Shown: positions 16,827 through 40,007, counted from the stretch's first letter. The stretch is 64,000 nt of DNA from an uncultured Acidobacteriota bacterium (GCA_963741955.1 CAVUKB010000004.1:96001-160000), one strand, 5' to 3'. Numbers and translations: made by a program. The notes: generated by a model not told the origin, from the letters alone.

Positions 16827-16844
16827 AATTTTTGCCGGCCCTCC

Positions 16845-17070
16845 GAGCCTCGAGCCCCGAGCCTCGAGTCCCGCATCCACTCTTCCGAGCCTCGAGCCCC
16901 GAGCCTCGAGCCCCGCGTCTCTCACCTCGAGCCTCGAGCCTCGAGTCTCGAGCTCCGCGTCTCTCACCCCGAGCCTCGCGTCCCGAGCCTCGAGTCCCGC
17001 GTCTCTCACCCCGAGCCTCGCGTCCCGCACCTTCAGCCTGGAGCAGCGATGACTTCACCTTCGCAGAAAG
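16845..17070 (+). repeat. Heptamer array with 42-bp period + RBS + MTSPSQK start module, copy 2
   Basis: Tracts start at 16845, 16887, 16929, 16971 and 17013; GGAG-cagcg-ATG at 17049. Confidence 0.85.
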
Positions 17071-20000
17071 CCATGAAAATGACGCAATCTCGCCAGACGG
17101 AGTCGCCCATCGGCCTCGACACTCAGAGACAATCAGACTGTCCCTCTCGAACCGGTTTATTCCGGACTACGGAGCGGCAGCAAGCGCGCGCGAGCGCCGC
17201 GCTCGTCGACACTGATCAGACAACCTGCCTGGATCGCCTCGGCGTGACTCTCGACGAGAGCAAGGATCATCGCCACGAGTTCCTCGTTCAGCACGTCCAC
17301 CATGCGGATCTGAATGACAGTGGGAAGACGCTGGGAGCTCAGGGCGAGGAGGTCGCTGAAGTCGAGGTCCCGGGTGACGACGACCCAGCCTTGCCGTCGA
17401 GCTCTCTCCAGAATCTCGGAATCAGCTGCGGTCGGCTCGCCGATCGACATCCAGTGAACGCTCTCGATCCCTCTTGTCGACAGCTTTCGCGCGAGGGAAG
17501 GAGCGAGATTGAAGTCGATCAGCAGCTTCACTGCGGGTCCGCAGCCTTACCGATCTCGACCTCGGCCTCGGACGAACGCCACGCTCCGTACGCCAGTGCC
17601 TCGCGGATGTCCGCTTCCTCGAGGTACGGATACTCGGACAGAATCTCCTCGGCAGTTCGCCCGGACGCAAGGAGCCCGAGGATCGTTCCCACCGTCACCC
17701 GCATCCCGCGGATGCACGGCTTTCCGCCCATGACTGCCGGATCCCTGGTGATGCGTGTCAGCCGATGCATGTCAGCCCTCCAGCGGAAGATCGGCGGTGC
17801 GGCTGCCGATCGTGTCCATTCCATCTCCCGCAACGCCACGGCCCGAACCCGAAATCTCGACAGGCCGAGGCATACTTCGAGCAGCCGCAGGAGCTCGGCT
17901 CTGAGCGGCCTCTCCGCCGCGCTGCTTCTCTTCTTCGCGCTACTTCCCGCCCTCCCTCTTTTCGCCCAATCTCCGACCGAAGTCGTCGTTCAGGAAGACT
18001 TCCAGTCGTACCCGACCCAGGCCAACCCGCAAGGCTGGGTCGATACCTCCGTCGGCAACCCGCACCCCCAGGCCGAGGGGCTGTACAAGACGTGGCCGGA
18101 TCCGACGCAGGGGAACAAGGGAGCGAATGTCGTCTACGGGACGAAACAATCCTCCGGCAAACCGGAAGGGCGCAACCCGCGCATCGGGACATTCTCCACA
18201 CTCGTCGATCACACATTCGGCACAAAGGGACGTTTCGAATACCGCGGGCGTTTCATCCGCACGCGCTCCGACGCGCGCATCGGCCTCACGTTCCTCTCCT
18301 CCTATCCCGACTCCGACCACTATTACCTTCTCGGCCTCTGGTCCCAGGCGACGTCGAGCAAGCTCACCATGCAGCTCTTCTCGTTCGGCGCGGGGACGCT
18401 GACCGGCACCATCGACAGCAACTTCACTCCCGAGCCCGGCAAGTGGATCCGCTTCCTCATTCAGGTCGACGGATCGGACGCTGGCAACAAAATCCGCGCG
18501 CGCTTCTGGATCGACGGCACCGACGAGCCGTCCGGATTCACGATCGAGGCGGAAGACTCCGCCGCGGGACATCTCGCGTCGGGCCGCATCGGTATCTGGG
18601 CCGCAGTCAAGGGCGACGCATACTTCGACGAGCTCTTCGCGAAGTACCCGGTCGACATCACCGCGCCCGCAATCTCCTTCCTCGAGTCGGGAACTACGCT
18701 CAACGACGGCGCGAAGTTCAACCGCGACGTCGCCCCCGCGATTCAGGTCGTCGACGACACCGACCCGAGCCCCTCCTGGTCCGCAACGCTCGACGGACAG
18801 CCGTTCACGTCCGGAACGACGGTCGCCGCCGAGGGAACGCATCTCCTTGCAGTCGACGCGGCCGACTCAGCCGGGAACGCGTCGCACGCCCAGCTCTCCT
18901 TCTTCATCGACAAGACTGCGCCGCTCCTCGCGGTTACCGAATCGGGCGCGCCACTCGCCGACGGCGCGATCTTCGATCACGATGCTGTCGTCTCGATTGT
19001 CGTGACCGACATCAGCGCGACCACCGACGCGATCCTCCTCGATGGCCAGCCTTACACATCGCTCACCCCGATCACCACGGAAGCGCAGCACGAGCTTTCC
19101 GTCTCTTCGATCGACGAGCTCGGAAACGGCCCCACGACGTTCGGTCCGGTTCATTTCTTCGTCGACGAGACCGCGCCGGTCGTGACCATTCTCCAGAACG
19201 GAGCGACGCTCCAGGAAGGCTCGGCGTTCAACCACGACGTCACCGGCTCACTCGCTATCGAAGACCTGACCCCGACCACGAGCTCCATGGCCCTCGACGG
19301 GCAGCCCTATGCGTCCGGAACGCCGATCAGCACCGACGGCTCTCACACCCTCGCCGCGACGGTCACGGACTCCGCTGGTCACACCACCACCGCCGGCCCG
19401 CTCCATTTCATCCTCGACGAGGCAGGGCCCACGGTCACCATCCTCGAGAGCGGCCAGCCGTTCCCGGCGGCCTATTTCTTCAACCGGGATGTCGTCGCGT
19501 CGGTCTCAGTCGACGACATCGCGCCGCACACCGCGACGATGTCTCTCGATGGTCAGCCGTACACGGAAGGGACGCCGATCACCGCCGAAGGTCCGCATGA
19601 GATCTCGGCGCACGTGACGGACACCGCAGGAAACGACGTGACCGTCGGTCCGATCGCGCTCACCATCGACAAGACTCCGCCCGTCGTGACGCTCCTCGAG
19701 AGCGGCCAGCCGTTCGCGGCGGGCCAGACGTTCCCACGCGACGTGGTCGCGGATGCCACTGCCACCGACACGATCTCGAAGGCCACGCTCACTTTGACCC
19801 TCGATGGGCAGACGTACGTCGCCTCCACTCCCGTCACCGCCGAAGGAGAGCACACCTTCGCCGCGACCGCCGTCGACCAGGGGGGGAACACGGCGTCCGC
19901 CTCCGTCTCCTTCGTCATCGACGAGACTCCCCCCGAGTTGTCGTTGCTCCTCGGCGGGCAACCGTTCCCGGCCGACCTCTGGACGAATCAGGATGTCACT

Positions 20001-23000
20001 CCCGAGCTCGACATCGTCGACATCTCCACCACCACGACCGACGCGACGCTCGACGGAGCACCGTACGCGATCGGCGCGCCCGTCTCTCTGGAAGGGGAGC
20101 ACGTTCTCGACGTCGCCGTGACCGATGCCGCGGGGTGGACCACGACGCTCGACGCGGTGACGTTCCACATCGACCGCGTACCTCCGGCACTCACTGTCAC
20201 TTCGCATCAGCAGGGTCAGGTCTTGCCGGAGCCGCGCGTCGTCCTCGCCGGCGGTGCGGATGACGCCGTGAGCGTCACGGTGAACGGCCAGACGGCGACG
20301 GTCGACGCGACGGCGAGAACGTGGACTGCGCCCGAGCTTCCACTGCTCGAAGGAAGCAACGCGTTCACGATCCGCGGGACGGACCGCGCCGGGAACAGCG
20401 GGGAGATCACGCTGAATCTAGTTGCCGACACCCGCGCGCCGGAGCTCGCGATCGTGGCGCCCGTTGCCGGAAGCTGCGTCGCCGGCTCGCCGCTCGAGAT
20501 CCGCGGTTCAGCCAGCGATCCCGAGATCGGCGACGTCGTGGTCTCCGTCGATGGAACGTCGGTTCCCGCCTCGCTCGACGCGTCCGGCAACTTCGTCGTC
20601 ACGTTCGCCAACCTCTCCGAAGGAGAGAAGAACGTCACCGTCACGGCGACGGATACGATCGGACATGCGACCTCGCTCGTCCTCCCGCTCAGCATCGACC
20701 GCACGCCGCCGGTCATCGCCGTCACCGAGGGCGGCAAGCCATTCACCGCGACGCTCGTGAACCGCCCGATTGCACTCTTCATCAGCACCAGCGACGCCGA
20801 CCCGAACGCGAAGCCGGTGGCAACGCTCGACGGCGCGGCGTACTCCTCCGGCTCCACGATTGCGAATGAAGGTGCCCACGCGCTTCAGATCACCGCGACC
20901 GACTGTGCCGGTCTCACCGCGACGAGCTCCCTTACCTTCACCATCGACACGACCGCACCGACCATCACGAACCTCCTCCCCGCCAACGGTGCCACGGTAG
21001 GGGAGATGCCGACGACGGTCACCGGCAAGACCGATCCTGACGTCCACGACCTCGTCGTTCGAGCCTCGAGCCTCGAGTCCCGAGCCTCGTCTTTCGCCCC
21101 CGACGGCACCTTCACCATCCCCAGCGTCCCCTTCGCCGAAGGGGAGAACCGCTTCACGATTCACGCGACCGATGACGCCGGAAACTCCAGCGACACGCCG
21201 TACGTCGTCACCGTCCGCACGACGACTCCTTCTCTCGAGATCCTCGACAGCGGCTCGCCGATCCCGCCCGGCGCGCTCTACAACCGCACCGTCACGCCGG
21301 TGATCCGCAGCGGAGCCTCCGACGCGACGATCTCCGCGACCCTCAACGGCGATCCCTTCACCTCGGGGACGGAGATCACCGCGGACGGCGCGTACACTGT
21401 CGACGCCACCGCCACCGACTCGCTCGGCCACAGCGGGAACGCAACCGCGACGTTCTCGATCGACCGCACGCCTCCCGCTGTCGCGATCGCCTCGCCCGCC
21501 GACGGCGCGGCGATCGACGCCGATCAGGTCGTGGTGACCGGCACGTCCGGGGATGCGACATCCGTCAATGTCGACGGCGCGCCCGCCGCACTCGACGGCA
21601 GCGGCCACTTCACCGCGACGCTTCCGCTCGAACCGGGCGAAACGGCGATTATTGCGACCGGCCGTGACGCCGCCGGCAACTCCGGCACCGCTCAGATCAC
21701 CGTCACCCGCGCCGCTGCTGCGACCGGCATCATCCTCACGTCACCCACCGACCACTCCCTGACCAACCGCCCGACCACAGTCGTCACTGGCCGCATCCTC
21801 ACTCCCGCAAATGCCGTGTCGCTCGTCATCGACGGCACCGCGCTCGGAGCGCAGGCTACCGGCCGGCGCTCTCCTTCAAATGCACCCGGATCCACGCCGC
21901 TCGCGACGGCCCATTCCCCTCTCCCCGTCCGGACCTTTGCCTCGGGCGTAAATCGAACTCCGGGGAGAGGGGTCAGGGGTGAGGGGCAACTACGCGCGCA
22001 AACCGAAGTTGTGAGCACGAGTCCCGAGTCCCGAGCCTCGAGCCTCGCAACTCCCTTCGACCCCACCGGCGCATTTCGCGTCACCGCGTTCCCTCTGGTC
22101 GAAGGCGAGAACACCATCACCGCGACCGTCACCGACAAGTCCGGCAAGACCAGCACCGCGAGCGTCCGGATCACAGCAGACCTGACCCCACCCGCTGTGT
22201 CGCTGCTCGAATCAGGCCAGCCTCTGGAGGACCAGGCCCGTTTCGCGACGCAAGCCCTCCTCTCCGCGACGGCGACCGACTCCGGTGCCGCCATCGACGC
22301 GACCCTCACCATCGACGGCGCGTCTGCCACGTCGCCCGGCACGATCACGGCTGCCGGCCCGCACATCGCAATCGCCTCGGCACGCGACACGGCCGGCAAC
22401 GTGACCCGCGTCCAGCGCACGTTCTTCATCGGTACGGAGCAGGGGAGTGGGTGCGGTCTCTCCGCATTCGATCCTGCCGATGGCTCCGTCGTCACCGCGA
22501 GCTCCGTCACGCTCGTCGGCCGCAGCGGCGGCGCAGCCGGCGTCACGGTCAACGGTGTCCCCGCAGTGGTCGCGAACGGCTCGTTCTCCGGCACCGCGGA
22601 GCTCCCGCAGGAAGGGCCGAACCTCGTCACCATCCGCTGCACCGACGCCTCCGGCAACCCCACCGGCGGCCCGGTCACCCTCACTCTCAACCGCGTCACC
22701 GGCAATCCATCCGTTTCCATCACCACTCCCGCCGAGATGGCGACGTTCGCCGCCGGAACCGTCGATGTCACCGGCACGTACGCCGATGCCTCCCGCGTCG
22801 ACGTCAACGGAGTCGCCGCGACGCTCGCGAACGGAACCTTCAGCGTCGCCGCGCTCCGTCTCTCTCCTGGTCTGAACATCCTGGTCGCCCGTGCCACCAA
22901 CGAAGCCGGCCGCAGCTCCATCGCTTCGCGCCGCGTCCTCTATCTCGACAAGTCGTCCGTGATCTCCATCGACTGGCCGAACGACGGCTTCACCACCGGC

Positions 23001-26000
23001 GCCGCCTCTCTGGACGTCAGCGGCACGTGGAGCAATCTCGTTCCGTCGACCATCACAGTCAGTGTGAGCGGCGTGCAAGAGGCGAGAGACGAGAGGCGAG
23101 GGGCGAGAAGGAACACAACAGGTCGGCTGCGGTCGGCGGAGCCACGATCGAAGAACGATGTCGCGAGCGACGACGGTACGGTTTCTTCACGCACCGCCCG
23201 CCACTCGACACACGCCTCCGATCGCATCGCAGCGCAGGGAGAGAAGAATGAGCTTCGACTATCGCGATCTGAAAGCGTGGCAGCTCGGAATGCAGATGGC
23301 TCGTCGGGTCTACGAGATCACGCGAGATTTTCCGAAGCGAGAACAGTACGGCCTGACGCAACAGATCCAGAAGGCAGCCGTTTCGGTTCCGTCGAACATT
23401 GCGGAAGGTCATGCGAGGGATTCGACGGCGGACTTCCTCCGCCATCTGTCGATCAGTCGCGGTTCGCTCGCGGAATTGGAAACGCAGCTGATCTTGGCGA
23501 AAGCTTTTGGATATCTCCCTCTGCAGAGCCTGGAGGAGTTGATGAAAGTATCGGACGAGCTGAGCCGAACTCTGAGGGGACTTCAAAAATCGTTGAGGCG
23601 TCGACTGGAGAAGAAACCATAGCGGAAGTGTCGATCGATGCGATTGCGTGGTCCGACACGACTGGAAACTTCATCGCTCACGCGGTGCCCTTGCTTCCCG
23701 GTACTCAGACCATCACCGTGACGGGTTCGACCATGGATGGTCGCATCGCCACCACGAGTATTCGGGTGACCAGAATCGATGGCGAATCAGACATTACGAT
23801 CGATTCGCCTCTCGCCGAATCCTGGTTCAGCGCGAACGCGGGAGATCCGATCTCCGTCGCCGGCACCTTCACTGCAGCTCCCGGTTCCAATGTCGAGGTG
23901 AATGGTTCGACGGCGACCCTCGGCGTCGCCTCTTCTTCGACCAGAACAGTCACCCTCGCCGCGTCCTCAACGAGCGCTGTCTCTGCGCACCCCGTTTCTT
24001 CGCTCGCCTCTCGCCTCTCGCCTCTCGCCTCTTCTTCGACCAGAACAGTCACCCTCGCCGCGTCCTCAACGAGCGCTGTCTCTGCGCACCCCGTTTCTTC
24101 GCTCGCCTCTCGCCTCTCGCCTCTCGCCTCTTCTCCTTACTCTGCAACCGCCGCGTTCTCCTCCTCCGACCCCACTCCCATCATCGCCCGCGTCACCCAG
24201 CCCGACGGCCTCTCCGCGATCACGACCATCTTCGTCCATCACCTCTCGGGCGCTCCTGCAGTGAAGGACGTCTTCCCCGCGGACGGCGCCACTTCCGTCG
24301 ATCCCGCAGCGCTGATCCTCGTCTCCTTCTCCGCGCCGATGGACCGCGCGTCGCTCTCGGCCGCATTCACGCTCGAGAACATGAGCGGCATGCCCGTCGC
24401 CGGACAGATGCGTCTCGATCGCGATGTCCTCAGCTTCGCCCCCGCGACGACTCTCAATCCCGGCGAGCGCTATACCGTCCGTCTCTCGACCGCCGCGAAG
24501 GACCTCGCCGGGAATGCGCTCGCCTCCGAGTTCACCAGCAGCTTCACGATCTCCACCACGGCGCCATCCACCGCGCCGGTGGTGAACCCGGTCGCCTCGC
24601 CCCTCTGCTCGGATCGGGTCGCCCTCAGCGGCACGGCACTTGCGGGGTCACGTCTGCGGATCGATTTCAAGGGCGTTCCGCAGTTCACGGCCGCGGCTCC
24701 GACGGAACGTGGCATTTCGATCTCGCCATCCCCGCCGAATCGGGATTCGACGTGGTCCGCGTCCGCATCGTCGGCGGCGACGGCACGCTCTCGCCTGCGG
24801 CCGAAGTGAAGTTCCAGGTCGACTGCGCCGGTCCGCAGCTTCTCGGCGCGTCCTACGACCGCACCACGAACATCGTCACCATCGACGTTCTCGAAGCCGA
24901 TGGATCTCGCATCAGCGTCCACCGGCCGAACTCCGCTCTCTCTCTCCAGATCGCCGACGGCACGATCCTCGGCGGCACCGTCGCGCAGGGCGACGAGCTC
25001 CTCTTCGCTCACCCTTACGCCAGCATCCGATCTGACGCAGCAGACGTTCACGCTCAACGTCACGACCGCGATCAAAGACACTACCGGCCGCAACCTCGTC
25101 TCCGGCTATACGCAGACCTTCGCCACCGGCTCCGGATCCGAACCTCCTCCCACCGACGGCACCGGCTACATCTCCGGCAAGATCCTCGACGCCGCCACCG
25201 GTCGCCCCCTCGCGGGCGCGGACATCACCATTGACGTCCCCGTGAACGCCTTTGCCCGAGGGGAGCAAGCTCATAGCTTGCTCTCTCGTTCCACTGGATC
25301 CGCACCCATGCCTCTCGGGACCTCCGGTTCCCCTCTCCCCGTCCACACCCAGGCCTCGGGCGCAATTCGCACTTCGGGGAGAGGGGTCAGGGGTGAGGGG
25401 CAGCTACGCGCGCTGAGCGAAATCGTAAGCGCCGCTTCGTCCACCCTCTCCTCCGACGCCACCGGCACCTATACCACCCGCCTTCCCGAAGGCGCCTACA
25501 CCATCCACGCATCCGCTCCCGGCTACACCGAGGTCTGGCGCCAGATCGTCGTCCCGGCCGGCCAGGGCGTCCTCCCGATCGACATCCGTCTCACACCCCT
25601 CGGCGCCACCGGCACCGTCGGAGCGGCCTCCATCGAGCCCCGAGCCTCGAGCCTCGAGCCTCGGTTCCGTCGGCTCTCCCACGAGCCCCGAGCCTCGAGC
25701 CTCGAGCCTCGGCTCTGTCGGTTCTCCCACGAGCCCCGAGCCTCGAGCCTCGAGCCTCGGCATCCTCTTCAGACCTGACCCTCTCCCACGGCGGCGAGAC
25801 ATCCGTCACCCGCCCCGCGACGCTGACCGTCCCCTCCGGCGCCGATCACCTCCGGCACGACACTGACACTCACCTCCGTCGGCGGCCAGTCCCTCGCCGG
25901 CCTCCTCCCTCTCGGCTGGTCCCCGCTGGCGTCCACAGAGATCTCCTCCGTCGCCACGTCCGCGAACGCAGCCCGAGGGGAGCGAGCTTATAGCTTGCTC

Positions 26001-29000
26001 TCTCCGAAGACATCCGCAGAAATCGGACCTGCCAGCGCGAATCGCCCAGCGTCCTCCCTCGCCGCTCCGGTTTCGTCCTCACTCGTCTCTCGCCTCTCGT
26101 CTCTCGCCTCTCTCCCCAACTCCACTCTCACGTTCACCGTCCCTTACACCGATATCACCAGCGCGGCTCAGACCCTCACCGCCGTCCGCTACGACAGCGA
26201 TCGCGACGAATGGATCGTCCTCGAGCCCGTCGTCAGCATCACCTCCGACGGCCCCGCCTCGATCACCGTCGACTCCACCGGCGCGTACGCTCTCGTCTAC
26301 CCGGATAAGGACTCGGGGAGTACTCTGCAGACTCCACCGCTCCCCATTCCAGGCTCGGCGCTCGCCGGCGTCACTCCCGTCGACCTCGATCCGACGACCA
26401 TCACCGCATCTCTCACCCTCGATCCTTCGATCGTTCTCCCCAGCGGCCGAACCGTCGGCACCCTCACGGTCTCTCCGAGCCTCGAGCCTCCAGCCTCGAG
26501 CCTCGCGTTCCCCTCGGGCACCGCAGTCCAGGCGTTCGTCCACGAAGAGCTGCGTCTCGTCGACGGAACCGTCGTCGCGGACCAGCCGTTCTCCGCGGAC
26601 CTCGTCCTCTACCGCACGCTCTCCGGCGCTCCGGCGACCGCGGCGTTCCACCTCCAGCCGAGCGCGAAGGCCGCGACGGTTCCGCTGCAGATCGGCTACG
26701 ACCACATCCGCGTCTTTCCGTATCCCGGACGCCTCGACCGCGGCACACTCATCGGCCCCGAGGGTGGACGCGTTCCCTCGGATGGGGGAGTGGAGCTCGA
26801 GATCCCGCCCGGCGCAGCCACCGAGCCGCTCCACGCCAGCGCGACGTCGCTCGACGCCACTGCGCTCGCTTCCTACGGCACCATCGACGGCTTCACCCTC
26901 GTCGGCGGCTTCACGTTCTCGCTCGACCGCGCAGTCGGGGGAGAAGAGGCGAGAGACGAGAGGCGAGAGGCGAGTGGATCTGACGCCCGAGGCTCTCGTG
27001 GCTCGGGCTCTTCGTCACGCGCATCGGAGATTGGAGCTGGCAACGGTGATCGTGAAGCGTTCTCTCTCGCCTCTCGTCTCTCGCCTCTCGCCTCTGACGT
27101 CGCGTCCCCCACGCTTCTCGCCTCCGCCCGCGCGACCTTCTCCGTCGACACGACCAATCTCACCGCGCCCCAGTTCATCCTCGCCGAGGTCCTCGGCGAC
27201 ACGCCGTACGGCCGTGTGATCCGTCTTGCGAACGTGATGGAACCACTTGTTGGAGGAGCCGAGGCTCGAGACTCGAGGCTCGAGGCTCGCAGCGGCATCG
27301 CCCGTGGAGAGCAGGCTTATAGCCTGCTCCCTCCGGTACCATCTTCAGACACGGGTGTCGCGAACGATCATCGTCAGGCGTCCTCTCTCGCCTCTCGCCT
27401 CTCGTCTCTCGCCTCTGATTCCACGCGCATCACCACATCCAGGATCGATCCCTCGAACCTCCCTCTCGACGGCATCTCCCACTCCGGGATCTACCTCCTC
27501 CTCCGCGCGAACCAGCCCATCGCCTACGCGACGGGTCTCGTCCGCTTCGGCATCTCCGGCCTCTACGCCTCCGACGCCAGCGTCCTCTCACTCACGTCGA
27601 CGCCACTCGGGACGGCGTCGGTCAAGGAGGCGAGAGGCGAGAGGCGAGAGGCGAGGGGAGGAACGAATTCCGGACTTCTGTCATCGTCACCCGCTGATGC
27701 GCAGGCTCATAGCCTCCGCTCTGGTTCCGGCAAATCCGTACCCGCGACTCTCGCGACGCCCGCTTCCCCTCTCCCCGTCCGCACTCTCGCCTCGGGCGCA
27801 AATCCCAATTCGGGGAGAGGGGTCAGGGGTGAGGGGCAACTACGCGCGCAGAACGAGGTCGCTCGCAGGGCCTCCTCCCTCGCCTCTCGTCTCTCGTCTC
27901 TCGCCTCTTCTCCCGCGTCGCTCGCCGCTTCGTCCCCCCTCGGCACCACCGACCTTACCCGCCCCACCGGCCTCTTCTCCATCCCCGTCGTCGCCACTCC
28001 CGCGGATCCCTTTGCGCTCCAGCCCTCGCACCCATCCACCGGCGCCGGCACCCCCTGGACCGCAAACTCCAGCCCTGACCCCGGCATCGTCATTCACGTT
28101 GGCGATCTTGTTCTCACATCGCAGCCGCCGCAGCTCCAGCACGTCAACGTCATTGGCGGCGACCCCTCCGGCACGATCGACCTCGTCGCCGTGAACGGGG
28201 CAGGCGAGATCTCCCTAGGCACGAGTGTTCAGGCCCTCTTCGACGTGAACCTCGATCCGGCATCCGCCGGCGCGACCTCGCTCGTCGTCACCGACGCGTC
28301 CACGCAGACCGTCGTCGCGGGCACCGCGATGCTCGCCGGCTCGACCCTCACCTGGACCGCATCCACTCCGAACGCGCTTGCGCCGTCGAGGCAATACAGG
28401 GTGACCCTCTCAGCCACGCTCCGCGGCGCGAACGGCGCCCCGCTTGGGACGACCCGCACGTTCGCCTTCACCACCGTTTCGCAGATCACCAGCACCGAGA
28501 TCGATCCTTCCAAGATCCACATCACCATCCCCGACGCGAACGGCGTATCCACAATTTACGGCCTCCCCGGCGCGCTCCCCTCCGGCTGGCGCGCCGTCGC
28601 CCTCCGCCGCGGCACCGCCTTCGTCACGCAATACCAGACCACCGCCGCAGGGGATGGAAGTTTCTCGTTCGCGATCGGCGGGTGCGGGGGAGGGACGGGG
28701 GTCGGGGGTCAGGGGTCAGGGGTCAGGGAGCTGAGTCGATCTGATCGCCGGACCTCTGAGATTTCCCGCGACGAAGCCTTGTCCCTGTATTCGTCGACCC
28801 ACACGTCACCCCGACCCCTGACCCCCGACCCCGGACCCCTAAGCTCCGTCTCGCAACCACAATTACGAAAGGCCACTCATGAAGATACAAACCTATCGCG
28901 ATCTGGTCGTCTGGCAGGAATCGATGCAGCTCGCGAAACAGGTGGTCCTGATCGCGCGTCGGTTTCCTCGGGAGGAACTCTTCGGATTGTCGGCGCAGGT

Positions 29001-32000
29001 CAAGAGAGCAGCCGTATCGGTGCCGTCGAATATCGCGGAAGGGCACGCGCGGGATTCGACGAAGGAGTATCTCCATCATCTATCGATTGCTCACGGTTCT
29101 CTGGCCGAAGTGGAGACGCAGCTCCTGCTGGCGAAGGATCTTGGCTGGGGAGACTCGTCTTCGATCGAAGGAGCTCTCCAACAGAGCGATTCACTCGGCA
29201 GGAAGCTTCACGCATTACGCAGATCGCTTCGATCGCGCCGCTGACGGCGGCTCTCCCTGACCCCCGACCCCTAACCCCTGACCCCCACTCCCGTCAGGCG
29301 ACTACGACATGCACGGACCAGCTCTCCCTCACCGACCACATCTCCCTCGAGATCCTCAACACCGCCGACAACATCGCGGCGATCATCCCGCTCACGCCAT
29401 TCGTCACGGCGGACGGCCACGGCTTCGTCGCCCCGCCCGACCAGGACATCACGTTCATCATCTCGGACGAGATTACCGTCCACGTCCCCGCCGGCGCGTT
29501 CGACCAGCCAACGCTCGTCACCGCCACGCCGTCCACGAAGGACGCCTTCTCCGAAGTCCCGAACTTCGACACAGAGCTCGACTACAAAGCCTCGGTCAAC
29601 CTCTCCTTCGACTGCACAGTGGCTTCTTCGTCCTCCCCGAGCCTCGAGCCTCGAGCCTCTAGCCTCGGTTCCCCAAGTCTCGGTTCCCCAACGAGCCTCG
29701 AGCCCCGAGCCTCGAGCCTCGCGTTTCCCTGTCGCGCGAACAAGCCCCTCGACCTCTCCATCCCGGTTCCCGCAAACACCGACCCCACGAAGCAATACCT
29801 CCTCGGCTGGCTCGGCCAGTCCATCCGCGGCCCGCGGATCATGATCGTCGACACCCTCCGCATTGACGGCGACCACTTCACCACCACGCCCGCGCCGTCG
29901 ATCGGAACGACCAGTGCGCAAACCGTGCACGCATCGTCGACCTTTTCAAACTCGTCGCTCTACCAGGTTCGAGATCCCGGAACGTACGTCATCACCTCAC
30001 TGCTCAGTCCCTACGCCTGGGTGGATGTCGTCGTCAGATCGGCTGACCTCTACTGGTCGACGTCGTTCTCTCTCTTCGTCGCAGAACGCTACATCACGAT
30101 GGCGAAGGGTCACGTATACATCCCCGTGCTGACGGACACGCCCTTCCGCGTCTACGGCGTGGACGCGACCGGTTTCGAAACCTATTCGCGCGATTACGAC
30201 GGAATCGTTCCTGGAGATCCTGGAGTTTCGGTAGCACTCCCATCGGCATCTCCCGATAACAATGGACCTTATCCCGTGTGGGGCAGCCCTTATCGCGTCG
30301 ATTCCGTAATCCTTCGCGATGGAGACGTGATCGTTCCAAACATCAAGGTCAATCAGTCGGGAGGAGTTGCGACGGTCACGCAGAACTCTTCCTCCACCAC
30401 CGCGAGTGTTCTTTCGAAGGGAACGAAGGTTCAGGCATTCGACGTCGAAACCGGCGCGGTGAACAGCGCGACAGTCGGTGACGGCGGCAGTTTCTCGATG
30501 TCAGTTTCTCCGGTCCATTCCGGAGACCGTCTTCTTCTCTTCATCAGTGCCTCCGACGTCGATCCGTCGAGTCTCGTCACCGTGGTTTTCAACGAGCCGC
30601 TCCAGCTCGCGAACATTCCGGAAGGCATGAGCTCCGCGGATGCCGAGATCGCAAACGAGAAGTTCCTGCACGACCTCATCGGCCTCGAGCACTTCACTAG
30701 TACGGGATGGGTACCGATAACCGACCAGGTGCACTTCCGGCACGATTCGGGAGACCGCCGAATCGTCCTCGAGTTGCCGTCCTCGCTGGTTCGAGGCGAT
30801 CGGTATCGGGTTCACCTCAGCGAGGCAATCACCGACGCCGGGGACAACCACATCGGATCGGTTAAGGACTCCAGCGGGAAGGTCACCAACGGCGCTGGAC
30901 TCCCGTTGGATCTCGAATTCACGGTCCGCAGCCCACACGGCGCGATCTCCTCTTTCGACATCGATCCGAGCACGGCTCACCATGGAGGGCTCGTGCGTGA
31001 CATCGCACGCAACGACACCCTCGTCTTCGTCTCGGCTCTCGACGGCGGAATCCTCGCCTACGATACATACGATCCGGCTGCACTCGCAAAAGACGGAAGC
31101 ACTCCGGCGCCCCTTTCCTTCGTGCCGGCCGCATGGACCAACGATGCCGGACAGCAGGTGACCGGCGGGATGGACGAGCACTGGGCGCTTGCCGTCGATA
31201 AGCACGGGCGCGTCTTTTCGACCGGCTTCATGGCCTCGTTCTCGGTCCTTCGGACTTACCGCGTGGAAGATTTCTGGAAGGCCTCCACTCAGCCCATGTG
31301 TGCCGGATTCGATCAGGCGCCACCGCACGCCCTCTGTAGATACGAGGGCTCCTCAATCATCGCCTGGCGCCCCGGAGTGTCGCTCGGCATTCCCGGGATC
31401 GACGATTCCCTCTACGGACTGACGGAAGGCTATCCGCGAAAGATCCGAGTCATTGAGCAGGACGATGGAGGGGAAGCTCTAGATCGAGACAACTTTGCGT
31501 CGACCTACGGAGGCGCGATCCAGAAGACCTTCAGCAATGGGATTCAGAAACTCTCCGTCACCGTCGCATGGGATACCACGAATCCCTACCAGCTCCAGCG
31601 CATTACGGTGGAGAACCTGACTCAACAGCTTCACTGGTCTGCCGACGCGACCCCGACGTCTCCTGCCGTGATCTCGGAGATCCTCGCCAAACCGGACGAC
31701 AAGCTCCGAATTGTGAAGAACGAGCGCACGTGGGCCGTCGTATCTCTCTTCGGCTACGGGATCGCCACCTACGACGTGAACGCCATCGAATCCAATGATT
31801 CACCAGATAAGGCTGCGGGTTACACCAACGTACCCGAACAGCTGTTCCTCTCGTCCGCCAGCGTCGACGATGCGTGCGACGGCCGGACGTTCCCGACCGA
31901 GGCGATCCGGGATTTGGCCTTCAGTCCCGATTTCGTCGCGAAAGTGGAAGTCGACGCCACGACCAACACAGCGACCATTGGGATCGACGCTCTCGATGTC

Positions 32001-35000
32001 CGCAAAGGCGTACTCGACGTCCTCACCCCGATCGGTGGGGGACTCCAGAAGGGGTCATGCCTCCAGCGGTGGGCGGGACTCATCGTGAACGACCCGGCGT
32101 CCGGATACCTCCTGAGCCGGTTTCAGGGCGTCAACGACGAATTCACGGAGAAACATCACCCGAACCCGTTCATTCGATTCAGCTCGGCCGACTATTTCGA
32201 CTGGACTGTCCAGGCAGAAGACAACACCATCGGACTTCGGGGATCGGAACCCGGCACGAACGTTCATCGTGAGTACGCGCTGGTCGCCGGTGGAGACTAC
32301 GGGCTCCTGGTGGTCGAGATCGGTGGCGATCCCCTCCCGAGCAAGGCTCCAGTGACTCATCCGCTCGATGCGGTGAACCTGGTCGACGACATCTGGTTCC
32401 CTGCAGGGGCCTATGCCGTTCGAGCGATTCCCGGTACCTCGATGGCCGCAGTCCTCGATGGGAAGCACCGGCTGCTGCTCGTCGACCTCTCGAGGATCGA
32501 CGAACGGTGGGACGAAGGCGTCGGGCCGAACGATTTCTTTCCCATCCCGGATGCGGCGATGAAGAACAAAGGTGGGCTCCCTGACGAGGTGGGTGTGGAC
32601 GACCCACGCATCATCTGGAAGTCGAAAGAGGACTTCATCGCTGGAAGCATTGCGCCGATCGTCGACCCGCGCACGGGCATCGTTTACGCGGGCGATTCCA
32701 CTGGCAAGAAGGTGAAGATCGGGTCAGTCCTCGATCCGCGGGTACGAGCACTCGCAGATCCCGATGGCACGGGACAACTGCGGGAGGTTGGCTCGGTCTT
32801 TGGCCTCGGAGTGAAGACCCTTCTCGCTCTTCCTTCGGTCGGTGGGCTCTCGGCGTTTCGATTCGAGGTCGATCTTCCCGGAGGCGTCGCTCAGTCGATC
32901 TCGGATCACAAACTCCACTTTGCCGTCGAAAGTGAGCGCCTCCCGGGTGTGGCCGAATTGCAGACCGCCGCTCCATGGCCGCTGTCGAGCCTCCGACTGA
33001 CTACACGTTCCGGTGAGGCGGAGCTGACCGGCAGGCAGACCGATATCGTTCTCGAGCAGGAGCTCACGAGCGGATTGACGCCGGAGGAGGTGGCGGAGCT
33101 CGCCCCGATCCTTCGAAAGCAGGAAGGATCCGCGCGATTCGTCTCGCCCTGGATCGTGGTCCTCGCAGATCCGCGTGCGAGCGAAACGGCGGCCCCACCC
33201 GTGGGCGGCCTTGCCGCTGCCGGATGTGAGAACTGCGTGCGGCCCGAGGCGCTTCGGAACAAGAGTCGAAGCGATGGCGTGTACGAGATCATGGCCACCG
33301 GCCCGCGGATTGCGATTCGTCCCGAGTGCGAGCTCGCCGCAGGATGCAACAACGTATTCGCGGGAACCCCGTACGAATATCTTGGCCAGAAGGGGAGACT
33401 CGAAGCGGTCCTCCAGACCACTCCCGCCGATACGATTCGCCCGACGGAAGCGCTCGTCGCCGCACAGAACCCTCCCGTCGCCGACGGGATGTTCCAGGAC
33501 GCGATCTATCTTCACAGTGGCGAGCTCGAGACTGTCTCGACGGACCTTGATGCGGGAGGTCGCGCTGGCTTCGAGGTCACGATCGATCGCTTCTACCGAT
33601 CGCGATCGATGGGAATGTCCCCGCTCGGCAATGGATGGGACTCGCCGCTGTACCGGCGTTTGCGGCAGCTTCCGGATGGGAGCGTCGAGTACCGCGACGG
33701 GGCGGATGTCTGGATCTTCAAGACCGGCGACGCCAGCACGGGAGTGGCGGACGTTCTCGCATCGATCGTTCGTCCGACTCTCGTCTACAAGTCACCGGCC
33801 GGACTCGATCTCAAGCTCGTCGCGAATCGCGACGGATGGGTCCTGATCGACCAGCAGTTCCGACTCACCCGATTCGACACGACCGGGCGCCTCGTCTCCG
33901 AGTCGGACGTGATGTACGACCCGAACAAGCCCGGGTCGGGCAACGTCATTCACTATCTCTATGATGACGAAGGTCGCCTCGCGCGCATCGTCGATCCTGT
34001 TGGGCGAGAAACGACGCTCACGTACTGGCACTACGGCGACGACCCGGCGAGGCGCTACCCCGGCCTTCTCGCGAAGGTCACCGACTGGCGTGGCCGTGAG
34101 GTCGAATACGACTACGATGCCGAAGGTCGCCTCACGGACGTTCGGCTCCCCGAAGCCGCCGCAGCGGACGGCGTTCCGTCGAAGTATTCCCATAGCCGGT
34201 GCGGCGCGCCCCGTGATCCACTACACGTACGACAAGACTCCCAGCCAGATCGCGTCGGGTCTCGATGCCCAGCACTCCCCGGAGGTCCTCGACTCGATGG
34301 AGTTCGTCGGAAATCTCGGCAGCGAAACGGATCCTGCCGAGGTCGCGTCCGGCGGCCCGCCGCGAGTGAGCTACACGTACGGCGCCGCTGGCGACGCGCT
34401 CACGCGCGACCGCATCTCGATCCAGCACTGGCCGTGCGGAAATCACGTCGGTGGTAGCTGCTCGAACCTCGACGCAACGCTGTCCTGGACCGCTTCGAAC
34501 GCGGTCAAAACGACCGATGTTCTCGGGCAGGTGCGGGAGTACACGCTGACCGATCCCGCGAAGTATGACGAAAAGGTTCACATCGGATCGATCAAAGCGT
34601 CCATACCAGCCATCGACTACTCGAACGGATTGCCGGAGGTAGCGCAACCTTCCCTGACACCCACCAGCGCCGACATTTCTATGAGTTACGAGTACGACGA
34701 CGCCGGAGAGATCCACATTGCCGACTCGTCCACGGGCCTCAAAACGCAACTCGACCACAAGGCGGCGAACAACGGGGCATCGGGCGAGCTGCTCTACGGA
34801 ATTGTTCAGATGGCACCGTCAATCGGTCAGTTAATCGCGAGCGTCGGTTACGACAATGTGCATCCGACCTCATCGAACGTGCTCTTTCAGATTGGGCGTC
34901 CGGATGCGGCGACAGGCAAGGATGTTTTTCGTGAACTTTCCATCGGCACACGCGATCGATCGAGCATCGAGCGCACCGATGCGGGAACGAAGAGCACCAC

Positions 35001-38000
35001 GAGCTTTGATGATGCCGGTCGTGTGAAAGAGATCAAGACGGTGGATGACCAGGGTACCGTCACTCAAGTCACGAAACTCACGCCGTGGGGCGATACCGAT
35101 GGCACCCTCGCCATTGCACGGGGCCGAAATCACGTGGTCGACTCCGGAAATGGGAGCGTCGTCACCGAGATCTCGTACCAGGATGGTCCCGGCCACGGAA
35201 TGATCGTCACCGCGACGGACCAGAAGAATTCCGCGGAGACGGTGACCTCGTATGACGCGGCCGACCGGCCCATCCACGTCGTCGTGACCGGGCCGAGCGG
35301 CACTCTGAAGGACGAGACGTACGGCTACGACGCGTCGGGACGACTCGCCTTCACGCGCCGCAAACAGAAGGGCGTCGGCAACGTCACCAGCGAAACGACC
35401 TTCGACGCGATGGGCAGGGTCGTCAAGACCACCCTCGACCAGACCTCGGTAGGTGGCTCGCTGCAGAATGTCTCCGCGAGCAGCAGCTATGACCTTTCCG
35501 GCCACACGATCCTGACCGAGCCCCTCCACGCAGGTTCCGCTCCGTACACGACGGAAACTCAGATCGACACACTCGGTCGAGTGGTCAAGCGCACCACGAA
35601 CGGCACAACGGACGGAAGCCTCATTTCGGTATTCGGCTACGACAAGCATGGGCAGCAGAGCTATGTCTCCGACACCGTGCGCACCGCAGAGATCCGGCAG
35701 TTCGACGATCTCGGACGGCAGATCGGCTCCGCCACATCCGATGGTCGGAAGACAATTACGACCTGGTCCGCCTGGAACGAGCCGCTCGAAACCACCGAAT
35801 ACGCCTCAGATGGTTCGATCTCCAGCCATGACAAGAACATCTTCACTTCTCATGGCCGCCTTCGTGCGACCAACGAGGCAATCGTCACGAATGGCGCTGC
35901 CCGGCAGTCCCGCTTCAGCTGGGATGATGGCGACAAGACTCACGGAACCTCGGTCGCACCGATCGCATCGATCGACACGATCAATCTCACCGGTCCGAAC
36001 CGTCGGGCGGAATCCGTAGTCGACGACGCCGGACGCACGATCGCGACGCGAATGGGGCTCGGTAACGGCATCGCGAAGTCCCTTCTTGATGACGGCTCCG
36101 TGATCTTCGGATCGAGCGATACGAACTACCTCGGTACCCTTCCCCTGAGCGTCACGACGAGAGAGCCACTGGCGGGAGCCCAGTACGCGACCACGACGTC
36201 CTATGATGTCCTGGGCCGCCCGATCGCCAGCACCCTGGCGGGCATCTACACGACGAAAACTGAATGGGACGAGGCCGGCGATGGCCTCAGCGTCACGCGC
36301 CCGGGGACGAGCCCCGAAAGTGCGACGTATGACTCCCGTGGCCTCGTTCTCACAAGGACCCTTCCCGACAACGAGACGCAGTCGTACCAGTACGACTCCC
36401 TCGGCGGCGTCACCACCTCCACCGACGAAGCCGGTGAGCCGACGATTTACACCCGCGATGACCTCGGGCGCGTGAAACTGATCCGCTATCCCGATGCCAC
36501 CACGGAGGAGACCCAGTACGAGCCGGTCACGGGCGCGGTTCTCGCGCACAAGAATCGCGCCGGCACCTGGCTCTCGTACGCCTACGACGCTGCGGGACGG
36601 GTGACGGAAGTGCACGAAGGCGAGGACCCTGCGAACGGAAAACTCCTCGAGAAGTACCAGTACGACGCCGCCGGACGTCTGCAATTCGCGAAGAATGCCG
36701 ACGCCTGGATCGAATACGCGGATTACGACCTGCTCGGCCGCCGGCACACCACGCGCAGCTACCGGCTCGCCGGCGATGGACTCGCGCTCACTGCGACGAC
36801 GCTCGACATCCACACGCAGAGACACGACTGGAACGTTTACGACGAGCGCTCGTCGTGGCACATGCCGGTCAACGGGTTCGAAGTTCCCAACGACGACCCG
36901 AATCTCCCGTGGCTCCAGACGATCGTCGAGACTCGGGATGCCGGATCGAATCTCGTCGGGCAGGCGAGACCTGACGGAACGCTTCTCACCGAGGCCACTC
37001 CCCGCGGCGCGGGGCGCGTCAAGGATCGCACGGTGCATCTTGCGGGAGGCTCGGTGGCCGTGACCTCGTTCGCATTCGAAGACGGCAATCCGGTTCCCCC
37101 CACCGGAGATGAGATCCCGGGTCTGTCGTGGCCAACCGGTCCGTCCACAGGGTTTCCTCTCGGCGACATCACCGAGTCGAATGGCACCGTGATCTCCGGA
37201 AGCCTCCTCGATCGCGATTCGGCCGCCCGGGTCGCGAAGATCGATCTCGCCGGGCTCGTCTCGCACGAATCGAGCTTCGGCTATGACGGTCGGGGACGCC
37301 TCCAGCAGTCGCTCCTCATTTGGCCCGACGGAAAACTTGATTCAGCACCGAAGACGATCGACACGTTCGTCCCTGCCGACTTCCTCACTCTCCACGAAGC
37401 TCCTTCGGCACTCTCTACAGCGCAGAACCAGAAGCTCGGGGAGAAGGCCTGGTCGATCGAGCCCGCAACCTGGAGCGCCTCGCGGCGGACCGGCGGACGG
37501 ATCGGAACGCTTACTCTTTCTCTGCCGGGTCTGAACGAAAGCGCCCGCACGTTCCAGTACACCGGCGGCCGCCGCACCTCCGACGGAGTCTGGACTTACA
37601 CGTGGGACGATTTCGAGCGGCTCACCGCGATGGAGAACCCCTCCACCTCGCGCCGTATCGAGTTCCGGTACGACACGAGCGGCCGCGTCATTTCCCGTAC
37701 CGCGTATCGGATCGGCGGCACGGAGCCGCTCCTCGAAGACCGTGGGGACATTCTCGCGAAAGACGGGCTTCCGGCCGACACGACGTTCGTCTGGGATCCG
37801 ATCGCCGACCGTCTCGTGGCCATCTTCGAAGGGCGCCAGACACTGGTCCCCGGCGGCCCGAAACCGTACGACGGTCTCCTCCGCCAGATGCTCCATGGCG
37901 ACCAGGGGTACGACGATCCGGTCGAGGTCCTCAAACGCGTCGGCGGCAGCTCGTCGTACCCCGAGGTCGAGCACTTCTATCCGGTGGTCGACCACTCGGG

Positions 38001-39645: not shown

Positions 39646-39653
39646 GGGAGATC

Positions 39654-40007
39654 ATGAGAACTTTAGGGCTGATGCTGACGATGGTACTGATCACCTGCGC
39701 ATCGACGCCGACGTACAACGTCGTTTTGCGGAATGCGACGGCCGAAAAGATTACCGGCGCCCACGTCTCGTACGCCGGTTTCCGATCAGTTGGAGGGGTG
39801 CTCGTCCCGGGTGCGATGGCACGGCAAGCACTGGTTCAGAAACCTGTACCTCAAAAAGCGAAAGTTGAATGGAGAACAGCAGACGGGCAATTGCACGTCA
39901 AAGAAGTCGCTGTGAAGACAGCAATCCCCGAACGGTTTTCCGGGGACATCACATTCGAAATCTTGGATCACGAACAGGTACGTGTCTCGGCTCAGGGCGG
40001 CGGTTGA
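39654..40007 (+). CDS. Putative lipoprotein immunity protein for the lipase toxin
   Basis: GGGAG RBS; short hydrophobic leader ending LITC; immediately downstream of the toxin. Confidence 0.7.
   Translation: MRTLGLMLTMVLITCASTPTYNVVLRNATAEKITGAHVSYAGFRSVGGVLVPGAMARQALVQKPVPQKAKVEWRTADGQLHVKEVAVKTAIPERFSGDITFEILDHEQVRVSAQGGG

What the first reader, a model, noticed from the sequence alone, without database searches (positions are those of the whole stretch)
21061..29720. Candidate new system: four-helix-bundle (IVS/Avd-like) genes and heptamer stem-loops inserted frame-neutrally inside a giant Rhs toxin gene
Seen: about a dozen insertions sit between folded segments of one gene. They are built from heptamer tracts, hairpins and, twice, a whole TIGR02436-type gene with its own RBS. 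Both nested genes are in the same +1 register and neither puts a stop in the host frame. Known: this family was first found in 23S rRNA intervening sequences that are excised from RNA, and it shares a fold with the nucleic-acid-binding DGR accessory protein Avd. Inference: these are mRNA-level intervening sequences recognised by the encoded protein. They could be excised, bypassed by the ribosome, or act as processivity/antitermination signals for a >35-kb transcript. Alternatively they are selfish elements tolerated as disordered loops.
Basis: partly seen in the sequence, partly recalled or inferred. Interest (0 to 1): 0.92.

Follow-up and report, generated by a model that had tools for sequence, protein, structure and literature searches.

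The report
Mobile inserts read through giant gene
A giant bacterial toxin-delivery gene carries 13 pieces of mobile DNA, two of them whole small genes in another reading frame, and all signs say ribosomes read straight through them as floppy loops rather than cutting them out or skipping them.

Summary
Thirteen inserts are absent or much shorter in orthologues. They come from at least three repeat families: heptamer arms, a DUF559-linked hairpin and a REP-like palindrome. Two carry an intact TIGR02436 gene in the +1 frame. Twelve inserts (2,766 nt) hold 0 host-frame stops against 11 and 28 in the other frames; 67 of 69 relatives' four-helix-bundle genes have a stop in that frame. The inserts sit in loops between β-strands, and the arm of the first cassette pairs across 93 conserved host codons. 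No RtcB was found. This favours read-through, not excision or bypass. The rule extends beyond the finding: antisense toxin-antitoxin cassettes in this operon are covered by stop-free, ATGA/GTGA-coupled filler frames here and in two related genomes, so selection seems to act on unbroken translation. As assembled, the host frame is broken (about 24.7-25.0, 25.6-25.9 and 34.2 kb), probably by assembly error; read support is unchecked. Closest known: ShiLan hidden HNH, Rickettsia RPEs, ORF-bearing 23S IVS. This scan has noted nested four-helix-bundle cassettes and filler frames before on other DNA.

The parts
8..15253 (+). Upstream giant ORF (5,081+ aa, open at window start; CarboxypepD/Big_5/LVIVD); recognisable coding ends near 13560, then filler
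13562..15242 (+). Filler A: stop-free continuation of the upstream frame over a palindrome, a CGAGCCT array (13833-13890) and three antisense small genes
   Evidence: 0 stops against 10-18 in each of the other five frames; Markov null 0 of 2000
14081..14380 (-). ParE-family toxin gene, antisense
   Evidence: PF05016 E 1.3e-9
14377..14607 (-). Probable antitoxin upstream of ParE (no Pfam hit; inference from position)
14755..14973 (-). Second small antisense gene, antitoxin-like by resemblance to the former (no Pfam hit)
15243..16826 (-). ISL3 element, 1,584 bp, 8-bp target duplication; recent (near-identical copies genome-wide)
16844..17039 (+). CGAGCCT heptamer array (42-nt higher-order repeat) ending at an SD and an ATGA stop/start overlap at 17049-17052
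17049..17900 (+). Filler leader of the Rhs gene: stop-free frame over the antisense DUF433/DUF5615 pair, up to the signal peptide (about 17900-17965)
   Evidence: 0 stops against 4-8 in other frames; null P 0.008; same layout in G026
17157..17531 (-). DUF5615 (PIN-like) gene, antisense
17528..17770 (-). DUF433 gene, antisense
17900..39645 (+). Host gene: signal peptide, Ig-like repeats, CarboxypepD, DUF6531, YD/Rhs core, Tle1-like phospholipase tip; about 7,200 codons in pieces as assembled
21060..21089 (+). I1: CGAGCCT tract replacing a short loop
21864..22040 (+). I2: REP-like palindrome + DUF559-type hairpin + CGAGCCT tract, 59 codons
23064..23651 (+). I3: purine-rich AGAGGCG arm (23078-23108) + FHB1, 196 host codons, no 3' arm of its own
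23248..23622 (+). FHB1: TIGR02436/PF05635 gene, 124 aa, +1 frame, SD GGAG
23931..24128 (+). I4: exact 99-nt duplication, each copy with a CTCGCCT arm complementary to the I3 arm
24690..25010 (+). Cluster of frame changes in conserved host sequence (assembly error likely; decay not excluded)
25254..25436 (+). I5: REP-like palindrome + DUF559-type hairpin; G026 and G027 orthologues are split here by an AbrB/PIN pair
25620..25770 (+). I6: 48-nt unit x 2.7 of CGAGCCT tracts; lies in a second cluster of frame changes (to about 25860), neutrality not shown
25947..26126 (+). I7: REP-like palindrome + CTCGCCT tract
26475..26504 (+). I8: CGAGCCT tract
26940..27098 (+). I9: gene-less hairpin, AGAGGCG arm paired with CTCGCCT arm
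27243..27410 (+). I10: CGAGGCT tract + REP-like palindrome + CTCGCCT tract
27585..27929 (+). I11: paired heptamer arms enclosing a REP-like palindrome and a DUF559-type hairpin, 115 codons
28686..29309 (+). I12: heptamer-armed cassette with FHB2; one purine-rich arm, two alternative pyrimidine-rich arms (28808-28840, 29255-29285); between host Cys codons 28683 and 29310
28879..29244 (+). FHB2: TIGR02436/PF05635 gene, 121 aa, +1 frame, weak SD
29622..29720 (+). I13: two CGAGCCT tracts between host Cys codons 29613 and 29730
34150..34230 (+). Single frame change in the Rhs core

Best explanation
The inserts are pieces of the genome's ordinary mobile repeats: heptamer-armed four-helix-bundle cassettes and their gene-less arms, a DUF559-associated hairpin and a REP-like palindrome. 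They have collected in permissive loops of a giant secreted Ig-like/Rhs protein and are translated as Ser/Ala/Arg/Gly-rich disordered loops. Shown by sequence comparison: they are inserts, they are repeats that normally lie between genes, the host frame has been cleared of stops across them, and the sites are loops. Inferred: ribosomes do read them; the nested genes are made from their own SD in the +1 frame; earlier inserts serve as neutral landing sites for later ones. Also inferred: what is selected is unbroken translation of an operon of more than 39 kb, since junk filler frames cover antisense toxin-antitoxin cassettes too. Ribosome cover would prevent Rho polarity, keep the complementary arms from pairing into RNase III substrates, and hand ribosomes on to the next start codon.
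For: Gaps in orthologues. 0 against 11 and 28 stops over 2,766 nt; at-risk wobble positions never use T (0 of 23, 0 of 17, 0 of 19) although T is used at 20-31% of other such sites; synonymous shuffles give a stop-free host frame with P 0.001, 0.038 and 0.083 for FHB1, FHB2 and a third nested copy in a helicase gene. 67 of 69 relatives' genes carry a stop in that frame and 0 of 69 are nested. AlphaFold puts I2-I4 and I7-I11 in pLDDT<50 stretches between strands. I12 and I13 lie between Cys pairs also present in G007, G011 and G026. Duplications are 99 and 48 nt. Filler frames: 0 stops against 10-18, 4-8, 5-8 and 5-15 in other frames in four stretches from two genomes; a third genome has an ATGA-coupled open leader. 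G027 has in-frame tracts at the I10, I11 and I12 sites. Rho and RNase III are present.
Against: No RNA, ribosome or peptide data. The gene is broken as assembled and has an ISL3 in its coupled junction, so it may no longer be expressed. Low pLDDT is partly forced by alignment gaps (8-10 rows). Two loops of about 200 residues inside or between small domains are a heavy load. The G027 filler at the I5 site is not one open frame (stops in all three frames; open only in relay, in an assembly with many frame changes). Neutral accumulation alone does not explain why 13 of 17 intragenic tracts of the genome fall in 8.7 kb when 32 coding segments over 4 kb exist. Single-gene P values for FHB2 and FHB3 are modest.
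Confidence: 0.7

Rival explanations
1. The inserts are removed or skipped at the RNA level: arms pair, the stem is cut and rejoined or the ribosome hops it, perhaps helped by the four-helix-bundle protein; the open frame is only a fallback.
For: Same family and the same heptamer-armed layout as the Coxiella 23S IVS, which RNase III excises (PMC4990558). I9, I11 and I12 form long stems. RNase III is present.
Against: IVS excision leaves unligated pieces. No RtcB and no PF09414 ligase in a 99% complete genome. No Rfam intron match. The FHB1 arm pairs with I4 (-66 to -67 kcal/mol) across 93 conserved codons, not with its own 3' end (-23.5). I1, I2, I4, I7, I8 and I13 have no partner arm inside the insert. 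No stop follows a take-off point. In the helicase, cassette-end codons stand where orthologues have conserved residues.
Confidence: 0.1
2. The inserts are translated but also work as a control system: the four-helix-bundle pentamer binds arrays of about five heptamers on the RNA and tunes elongation, RNA stability or processing of the giant operon, which is why they are concentrated here.
For: Extreme concentration; the same sites are colonised in G026 and G027; median array length 4.6 units and the homologue 2GSC is a five-chain ring; arrays are oriented with respect to transcription (purine-rich after stops 88 against 41; pyrimidine-rich before starts 95 against 33); the proteins are net basic.
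Against: 7 of 10 orthologue loci have no heptamer tract at all in the region fetched and do without (one search scanned 10: tracts only in L027 and L029; L030 none). The arm sequence differs from cassette to cassette. No binding data. Coxiella S23p appeared not to be made in vivo.
Confidence: 0.15
3. The cargo is kept because it protects a costly locus from deletion (addiction by embedded toxin-antitoxin pairs, perhaps also by the four-helix-bundle cassettes); read-through is the price of hosting it.
For: ParE, DUF433/DUF5615 and AbrB/PIN pairs sit at junctions of this operon in G000, G026 and G027, with different cargo at equivalent places. Stabilising of large arrays by such pairs is recalled from superintegrons (one search gave listings only).
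Against: Explains the toxin-antitoxin pairs, not the gene-less heptamer tracts. No toxicity is known for this family (E. coli expressing S23p showed no defect). Compatible with the best explanation.
Confidence: 0.2
4. The gene is now a decaying pseudogene; the open frames record past selection only.
For: Frame changes in conserved sequence and an ISL3 at the coupled junction. The best DNA holder has 0.71 of the sampled words, not all.
Against: Breaks are clustered and no nonsense codon lies in the homologous frame elsewhere in 21.7 kb. The same assembly has a local error cluster: one ISL3 copy with 28 gap openings, mostly single G, while 17 other matches have none. It would not change how the inserts arose.
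Confidence: 0.2

Closest known systems
[quoted passage not shown]
   Same: A whole gene nested in another frame of a host gene, no host-frame stop, no intron or intein features, predicted to loop out of the host protein.
   Different: Cargo here is a four-helix-bundle protein with no known nuclease activity, in the +1 frame, with heptamer arms; two copies plus 11 gene-less inserts in one gene.
Rickettsia palindromic elements and intragenic REPs (PMC2229807, PMC3733652; passages)
   Same: Intergenic repeats found in frame inside genes and translated; RPE-bearing guanylate kinase is made and active.
   Different: Those add 20-50 residues and carry no gene; here three or more families, up to about 200 residues, 13 sites in 8.7 kb.
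ORF-bearing 23S rRNA intervening sequences (Coxiella S23p; PMC4990558; passages)
   Same: Same protein family; heptameric repeats at the 5' end; terminal stem.
   Different: Host is an mRNA whose frame is kept open; excision without ligation would destroy the message; FHB1 lacks its own 3' arm.
Heptamer repeats of Xanthomonas, Nostoc and Beggiatoaceae (PMC4692102, PMC4679880; passages)
   Same: About four units per array, inverted pairs, strand bias next to starts and stops, mostly intergenic.
   Different: In the passages seen they are not linked to four-helix-bundle genes and are under-represented in coding strands.
DGR accessory protein Avd (PMC10053308; passages)
   Same: Related fold; weak profile match (NF033474 30 and 25 bits).
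   Different: Far below cut-off 80; the only reverse transcriptase found lies beside a group II intron domain.
Translational bypassing in T4 gene 60 (PMC7026636; passages)
   Same: A mobile insert inside a gene that still yields one protein.
   Different: Gene 60 has a stop right after the take-off codon and a 50-nt non-coding gap; here there is no stop and inserts reach 600 nt.

Membership tests
TIGR02436 / PF05635 four-helix-bundle protein | Profile score above cut-off | tested here: met
   122 and 118 bits against 24; 129 and 121 against 33.8; 2GSC at E 1.3e-26 for FHB1
TIGR02436 / PF05635 four-helix-bundle protein | Family-conserved residues kept | tested here: met
   18, 20 and 20 of 23 conserved columns (relatives' mean 21.2 of 23, n = 67); wobble position least conserved between copies
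TIGR02436 / PF05635 four-helix-bundle protein | Pentameric ring | not tested
   Known for 2GSC; no complex job sent
23S/16S rRNA intervening sequence | Located in an rRNA gene | tested here: not met
   Host is protein-coding
23S/16S rRNA intervening sequence | Complementary ends forming a terminal stem | tested here: inconclusive
   Met for I9, I11, I12; not met for I3 and the single-arm inserts
23S/16S rRNA intervening sequence | Excision by RNase III without ligation | not testable with these tools
   RNase III gene present; no RNA data
Group I/II intron | Catalytic RNA model match | tested here: not met
   0 Rfam matches in 13000-28600 and 28860-40000
Intein | Hint domain in the host frame | tested here: not met
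   No Hint/intein family in the host pieces; the same scan found one in another window gene
Programmed translational bypassing | Stop codon right after the take-off codon; non-coding gap | tested here: not met
   0 host-frame stops in 12 inserts; definition
DGR (Avd) | Avd score, DGR reverse transcriptase, TR/VR pair | tested here: not met
   TR/VR not searched separately
RPE / intragenic REP-type coding insertion | Repeat also found intergenically in the same genome | tested here: met
   372 of 389 heptamer tracts not inside coding-flanked ORFs; hairpin family at about 33 places, one array around a DUF559 gene
RPE / intragenic REP-type coding insertion | In frame, absent from orthologues, at a loop | tested here: met
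   (I6 not shown)
RPE / intragenic REP-type coding insertion | Insert peptide present in the protein | not testable with these tools
   Needs proteomics
ShiLan-type hidden out-of-frame gene | Intact ORF in another frame with stop-free host frame | tested here: met
ShiLan-type hidden out-of-frame gene | Cargo is a homing endonuclease | tested here: not met
   Cargo is PF05635

The most novel reading that the evidence does not exclude
Heptamer-armed four-helix-bundle cassettes are an undescribed kind of mobile element whose pentameric protein recognises its own five-unit RNA arrays. The arms act as a translation sensor: harmless while ribosomes cover them, pairing into RNase III substrates (or, in part, being removed) when translation lapses. 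This operon has recruited many of them, together with filler frames over antisense toxin-antitoxin pairs, as a distributed quality control on a message of about 40 kb or more that ends in a toxin.
Probability: 0.17. Interest if true: 0.9.

Novelty: new variant of a known kind. Interest (0 to 1): 0.62.

Why it matters
It gives a natural, testable case of dual coding in a bacterium: two conserved genes inside a host frame from which stops have been removed at wobble positions. It ties a large orphan protein family (found in 57 of 60 genomes of this family) to the unexplained heptamer arrays of bacteria. The filler frames suggest that in very long operons the act of translation, not the peptide, can be what selection keeps. 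Annotation pipelines will miss the nested genes and read the filler as protein.

Tried and rejected
Sequencing runs: no RNA holder listed; one DNA run holds 0.71 of the words and may be the source sample. Read-level support for the frame changes and for RNA junctions stayed unchecked. Target-site duplications at insert edges: none consistent in 12 inserts examined; orthologues are too distant (41-53% identity) to fix the edges to the base. Promoter/terminator scan of 13000-28600: 1 promoter-like site against 0.9 expected and 11 terminator-like against 6.7 +/- 2.5, nothing tied to the inserts. Fusion of the upstream ORF with the Rhs gene before the ISL3 arrived: rejected by frame arithmetic, which gives a stop/start overlap instead. 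C-rich wobble positions in the insert region (C minus G 0.32-0.42, top 1% of 2,001 genes): not specific, since the insert-free G007 orthologue has it too and genes near tracts do not. FHB genes interrupting host genes with stops in relatives: none seen in 69 loci. DGR link: rejected. Synonymous-shuffle test on in-phase antisense genes is uninformative by construction and gave P 0.18-1.0 for out-of-phase ones; the filler argument rests on whole-stretch counts and a first-order Markov null. No complex prediction was sent. Paper searches for this arrangement found nothing describing it; subscription journals are mostly not covered and no supplements were read (the intragenic REP table of PMC3733652 could hold similar cases).


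Full report
Setting. The window is G000:C4:96001-160000 of a 5.4-Mb, 16-contig genome, 99.1% complete. The class Thermoanaerobaculia comes from an earlier AI note (e1-1255348) and was not tested. The host gene runs from a signal peptide near 17900 to 39645: Ig-like repeats, CarboxypepD, DUF6531, YD/Rhs core and a Tle1-like phospholipase tip. It follows an ORF of more than 5,081 codons and precedes orphan Rhs tips.

The observation. A host piece matched 12 of 40 other genomes. I fetched 10 of the 12 loci. Seven went into the alignments (first part) and eight into the second part; L029 and L030 were left out because their frames are broken, and L027 was used only downstream of its split. Thirteen inserts appear (I1-I13, see parts). 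The larger ones are gaps in the orthologues; I1 and I8 replace short loops. FHB1 (23248-23622) and FHB2 (28879-29244) are intact TIGR02436/PF05635 genes in the +1 frame. They keep 18 and 20 of 23 family-conserved columns, and the wobble position is the least conserved between copies. The gene is not one ORF as assembled: the coding frame changes at about 24.69-25.01, 25.62-25.86 and 34.2 kb. One ISL3 copy elsewhere in the assembly shows 28 gap openings, mostly single G, while 17 other matches have none and three have gaps only at their ends, so local consensus error is the likely cause. This stayed unchecked at read level, and I6 cannot be called frame-neutral.

What the inserts are made of. 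The genome holds 389 heptamer tracts. Seventeen lie inside ORFs with coding-like sequence on both sides, and 13 of these are in this gene (16 of 23 at a lower threshold, my own dicodon model). The genome has 32 coding segments over 4 kb, so size alone is not the cause. Tracts are oriented: purine-rich after stops (88 against 41), pyrimidine-rich before starts (95 against 33); median 4.6 units, as described for Xanthomonas and Nostoc (PMC4692102, passages). A second component is a hairpin found at about 33 places, mostly in intergenic arrays, one of which surrounds a DUF559 gene. A third is a short REP-like palindrome (label mine; 5 regex matches, 4 in this gene). PF05635 occurs in 57 of 60 genomes of the family. 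Of 69 loci examined, 55 have at least one heptamer arm within 350 nt and none is nested in a coding frame. G000 has seven matches: these two, a third nested in the +1 frame of a Helicase_C/NOV_C gene where 4 of 4 orthologues lack the insert, two seen between genes with heptamer tracts, and two (one below cut-off) whose printout was partly cut.

Read through or removed? Over 12 inserts (2,766 nt) the host frame has 0 stops, the other two 11 and 28. In the +1 overlap a host stop needs a wobble T before AA, AG or GA. The three nested genes use T at 0 of 23, 0 of 17 and 0 of 19 such sites, against 31%, 27% and 20% elsewhere. Synonymous shuffles give a stop-free host frame with P 0.001, 0.038 and 0.083. 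In relatives 67 of 69 genes have a stop in that frame. The third frame was almost never open in shuffles, which explains the shared +1 register without a mechanism. AlphaFold models (8 and 10 rows; mean pLDDT 66 and 67; pTM 0.30 and 0.43) place I2-I4 and I7-I11 in pLDDT<50 stretches between well-predicted strands; the low confidence is partly due to alignment gaps. I1, I2 and I3 leave the equivalent loop of their Ig modules. I12 and I13 lie between Cys pairs that G007, G011 and G026 share. Duplications inside inserts are 99 and 48 nt. Against excision: the FHB1 arm pairs with I4 across 93 conserved codons; IVS excision leaves unligated ends (PMC4990558, passages); RtcB and PF09414 were not found; Rfam found no intron. 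Against bypassing: no stop follows a take-off codon, unlike gene 60 (PMC7026636, passages). Partial cutting is not excluded.

The rule extends beyond the finding. The upstream ORF stays open for 560 codons past its last recognisable domain, over a heptamer array and antisense genes including a ParE toxin: 0 stops against 10-18 in the other five frames. Allowing for the ISL3 and its 8-bp duplication, that frame ends at 17050-17052, overlapping an ATG at 17049 with an SD. From there the Rhs frame is open for about 285 codons over an antisense DUF433/DUF5615 pair (0 against 4-8) to the signal peptide. G026 has the same leader, GTGA-coupled (0 against 5-8). It is split at the I5 site by an AbrB/PIN pair that is covered by a 381-codon GTGA-coupled frame (0 against 5-15; null P about 0.001) ending 13 nt before a new start with a new signal-like sequence. 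G027 has an ATGA-coupled open leader, the same split and in-frame tracts at I10, I11 and I12, but its filler at the split is not a single open frame. G026 and G027 share a family and the three genes may share ancestry, so these are not fully independent. A filler with no place in the mature protein points to selection on translation itself. Uncoupling exposes Rho sites and silences downstream genes (PMC12360218, passages); Rho is present. That step is inference.

Comparison and novelty. In-frame translated repeats are known (RPE, REP: PMC2229807, PMC3733652, passages). A hidden out-of-frame gene in a stop-free host frame is known from the ShiLan HNH (PMC11855218, abstract and passages). PMC4679880 (find) does not mention this protein family. 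PMC10053308 (passages) notes the Avd likeness. Four searches found no paper on four-helix-bundle cassettes nested in protein genes. Earlier AI notes of this scan report such cassettes, dense in-frame repeats in giant genes, and open frames over antisense cassettes on other DNA; they are leads, not support. What this locus adds is density, several families at once, recurrence at the same loops in related genomes, and filler frames in the same operon. Unpublished genomes G022 and G061 enter only the tallies.

Verdict. Real and unusual; most likely translated mobile cargo kept transparent to the ribosome (0.7). Removal or bypass 0.1. A regulatory role of the protein on its repeats remains open. 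New variant of a known kind; interest 0.62.

Noticed in passing
G000:C4:5249-5611 (L061:1486-1848): Third four-helix-bundle gene, nested in the +1 frame of a Helicase_C/NOV_C gene with open host frame and degenerate paired arms; absent from 4 of 4 orthologues; a second small heptamer insert lies further downstream in the same gene.
   Followed up: yes
window 13562-17900: Stop-free filler frames over antisense ParE, antitoxin-like and DUF433/DUF5615 genes, joined by an ATGA overlap and interrupted by a recent ISL3.
   Followed up: yes
L027:10081-11240 and L029 (G026, G027): The orthologous giant gene is split at the I5 site by an antisense AbrB/PIN pair with repeats; the downstream half starts with a new signal-like sequence.
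   Followed up: partly
window 39869-64000: Array of orphan Rhs core/tip cassettes (WHH, Tox-REase-7, PT-HINT, NucA/NucB, DUF6765), three with 85-90% DNA identity to the host core, and a second ISL3 at about 48.0-49.6 kb.
   Followed up: no
G000:C6:501680-503338 (L109): Glycosyltransferase with an in-frame inverted pair of ATTTCGG/CCGAAAT arrays and further in-frame repeat pieces.
   Followed up: partly
G000:C4:517469-519241 and C6:518600-520519: In-frame heptamer tracts in two ORFs that by sequence recall ImuB and asparagine synthetase (labels recalled, no family scan).
   Followed up: no
G000:C1:83969-87364, C5:1165302-1169444, C10:379981-381199: Long intergenic arrays of the CCCCTCTCCCC/GGGGAGAGGGG hairpin; the C1 array holds a DUF559 gene.
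   Followed up: partly
G000:C9:112132-113463: ISL3 copy with 28 gap openings, mostly single G: a local error cluster of the assembly.
   Followed up: partly
window 21000-30000: Four-fold sites of host codons are strongly C-rich (top 1% of genes), as in the G007 orthologue; GC drops after 30 kb, suggesting a mosaic gene.
   Followed up: partly
L107:413-3457 (G000:C11): The only reverse transcriptase found, with a group II intron domain downstream and what looks like a transposase ORF between them.
   Followed up: no
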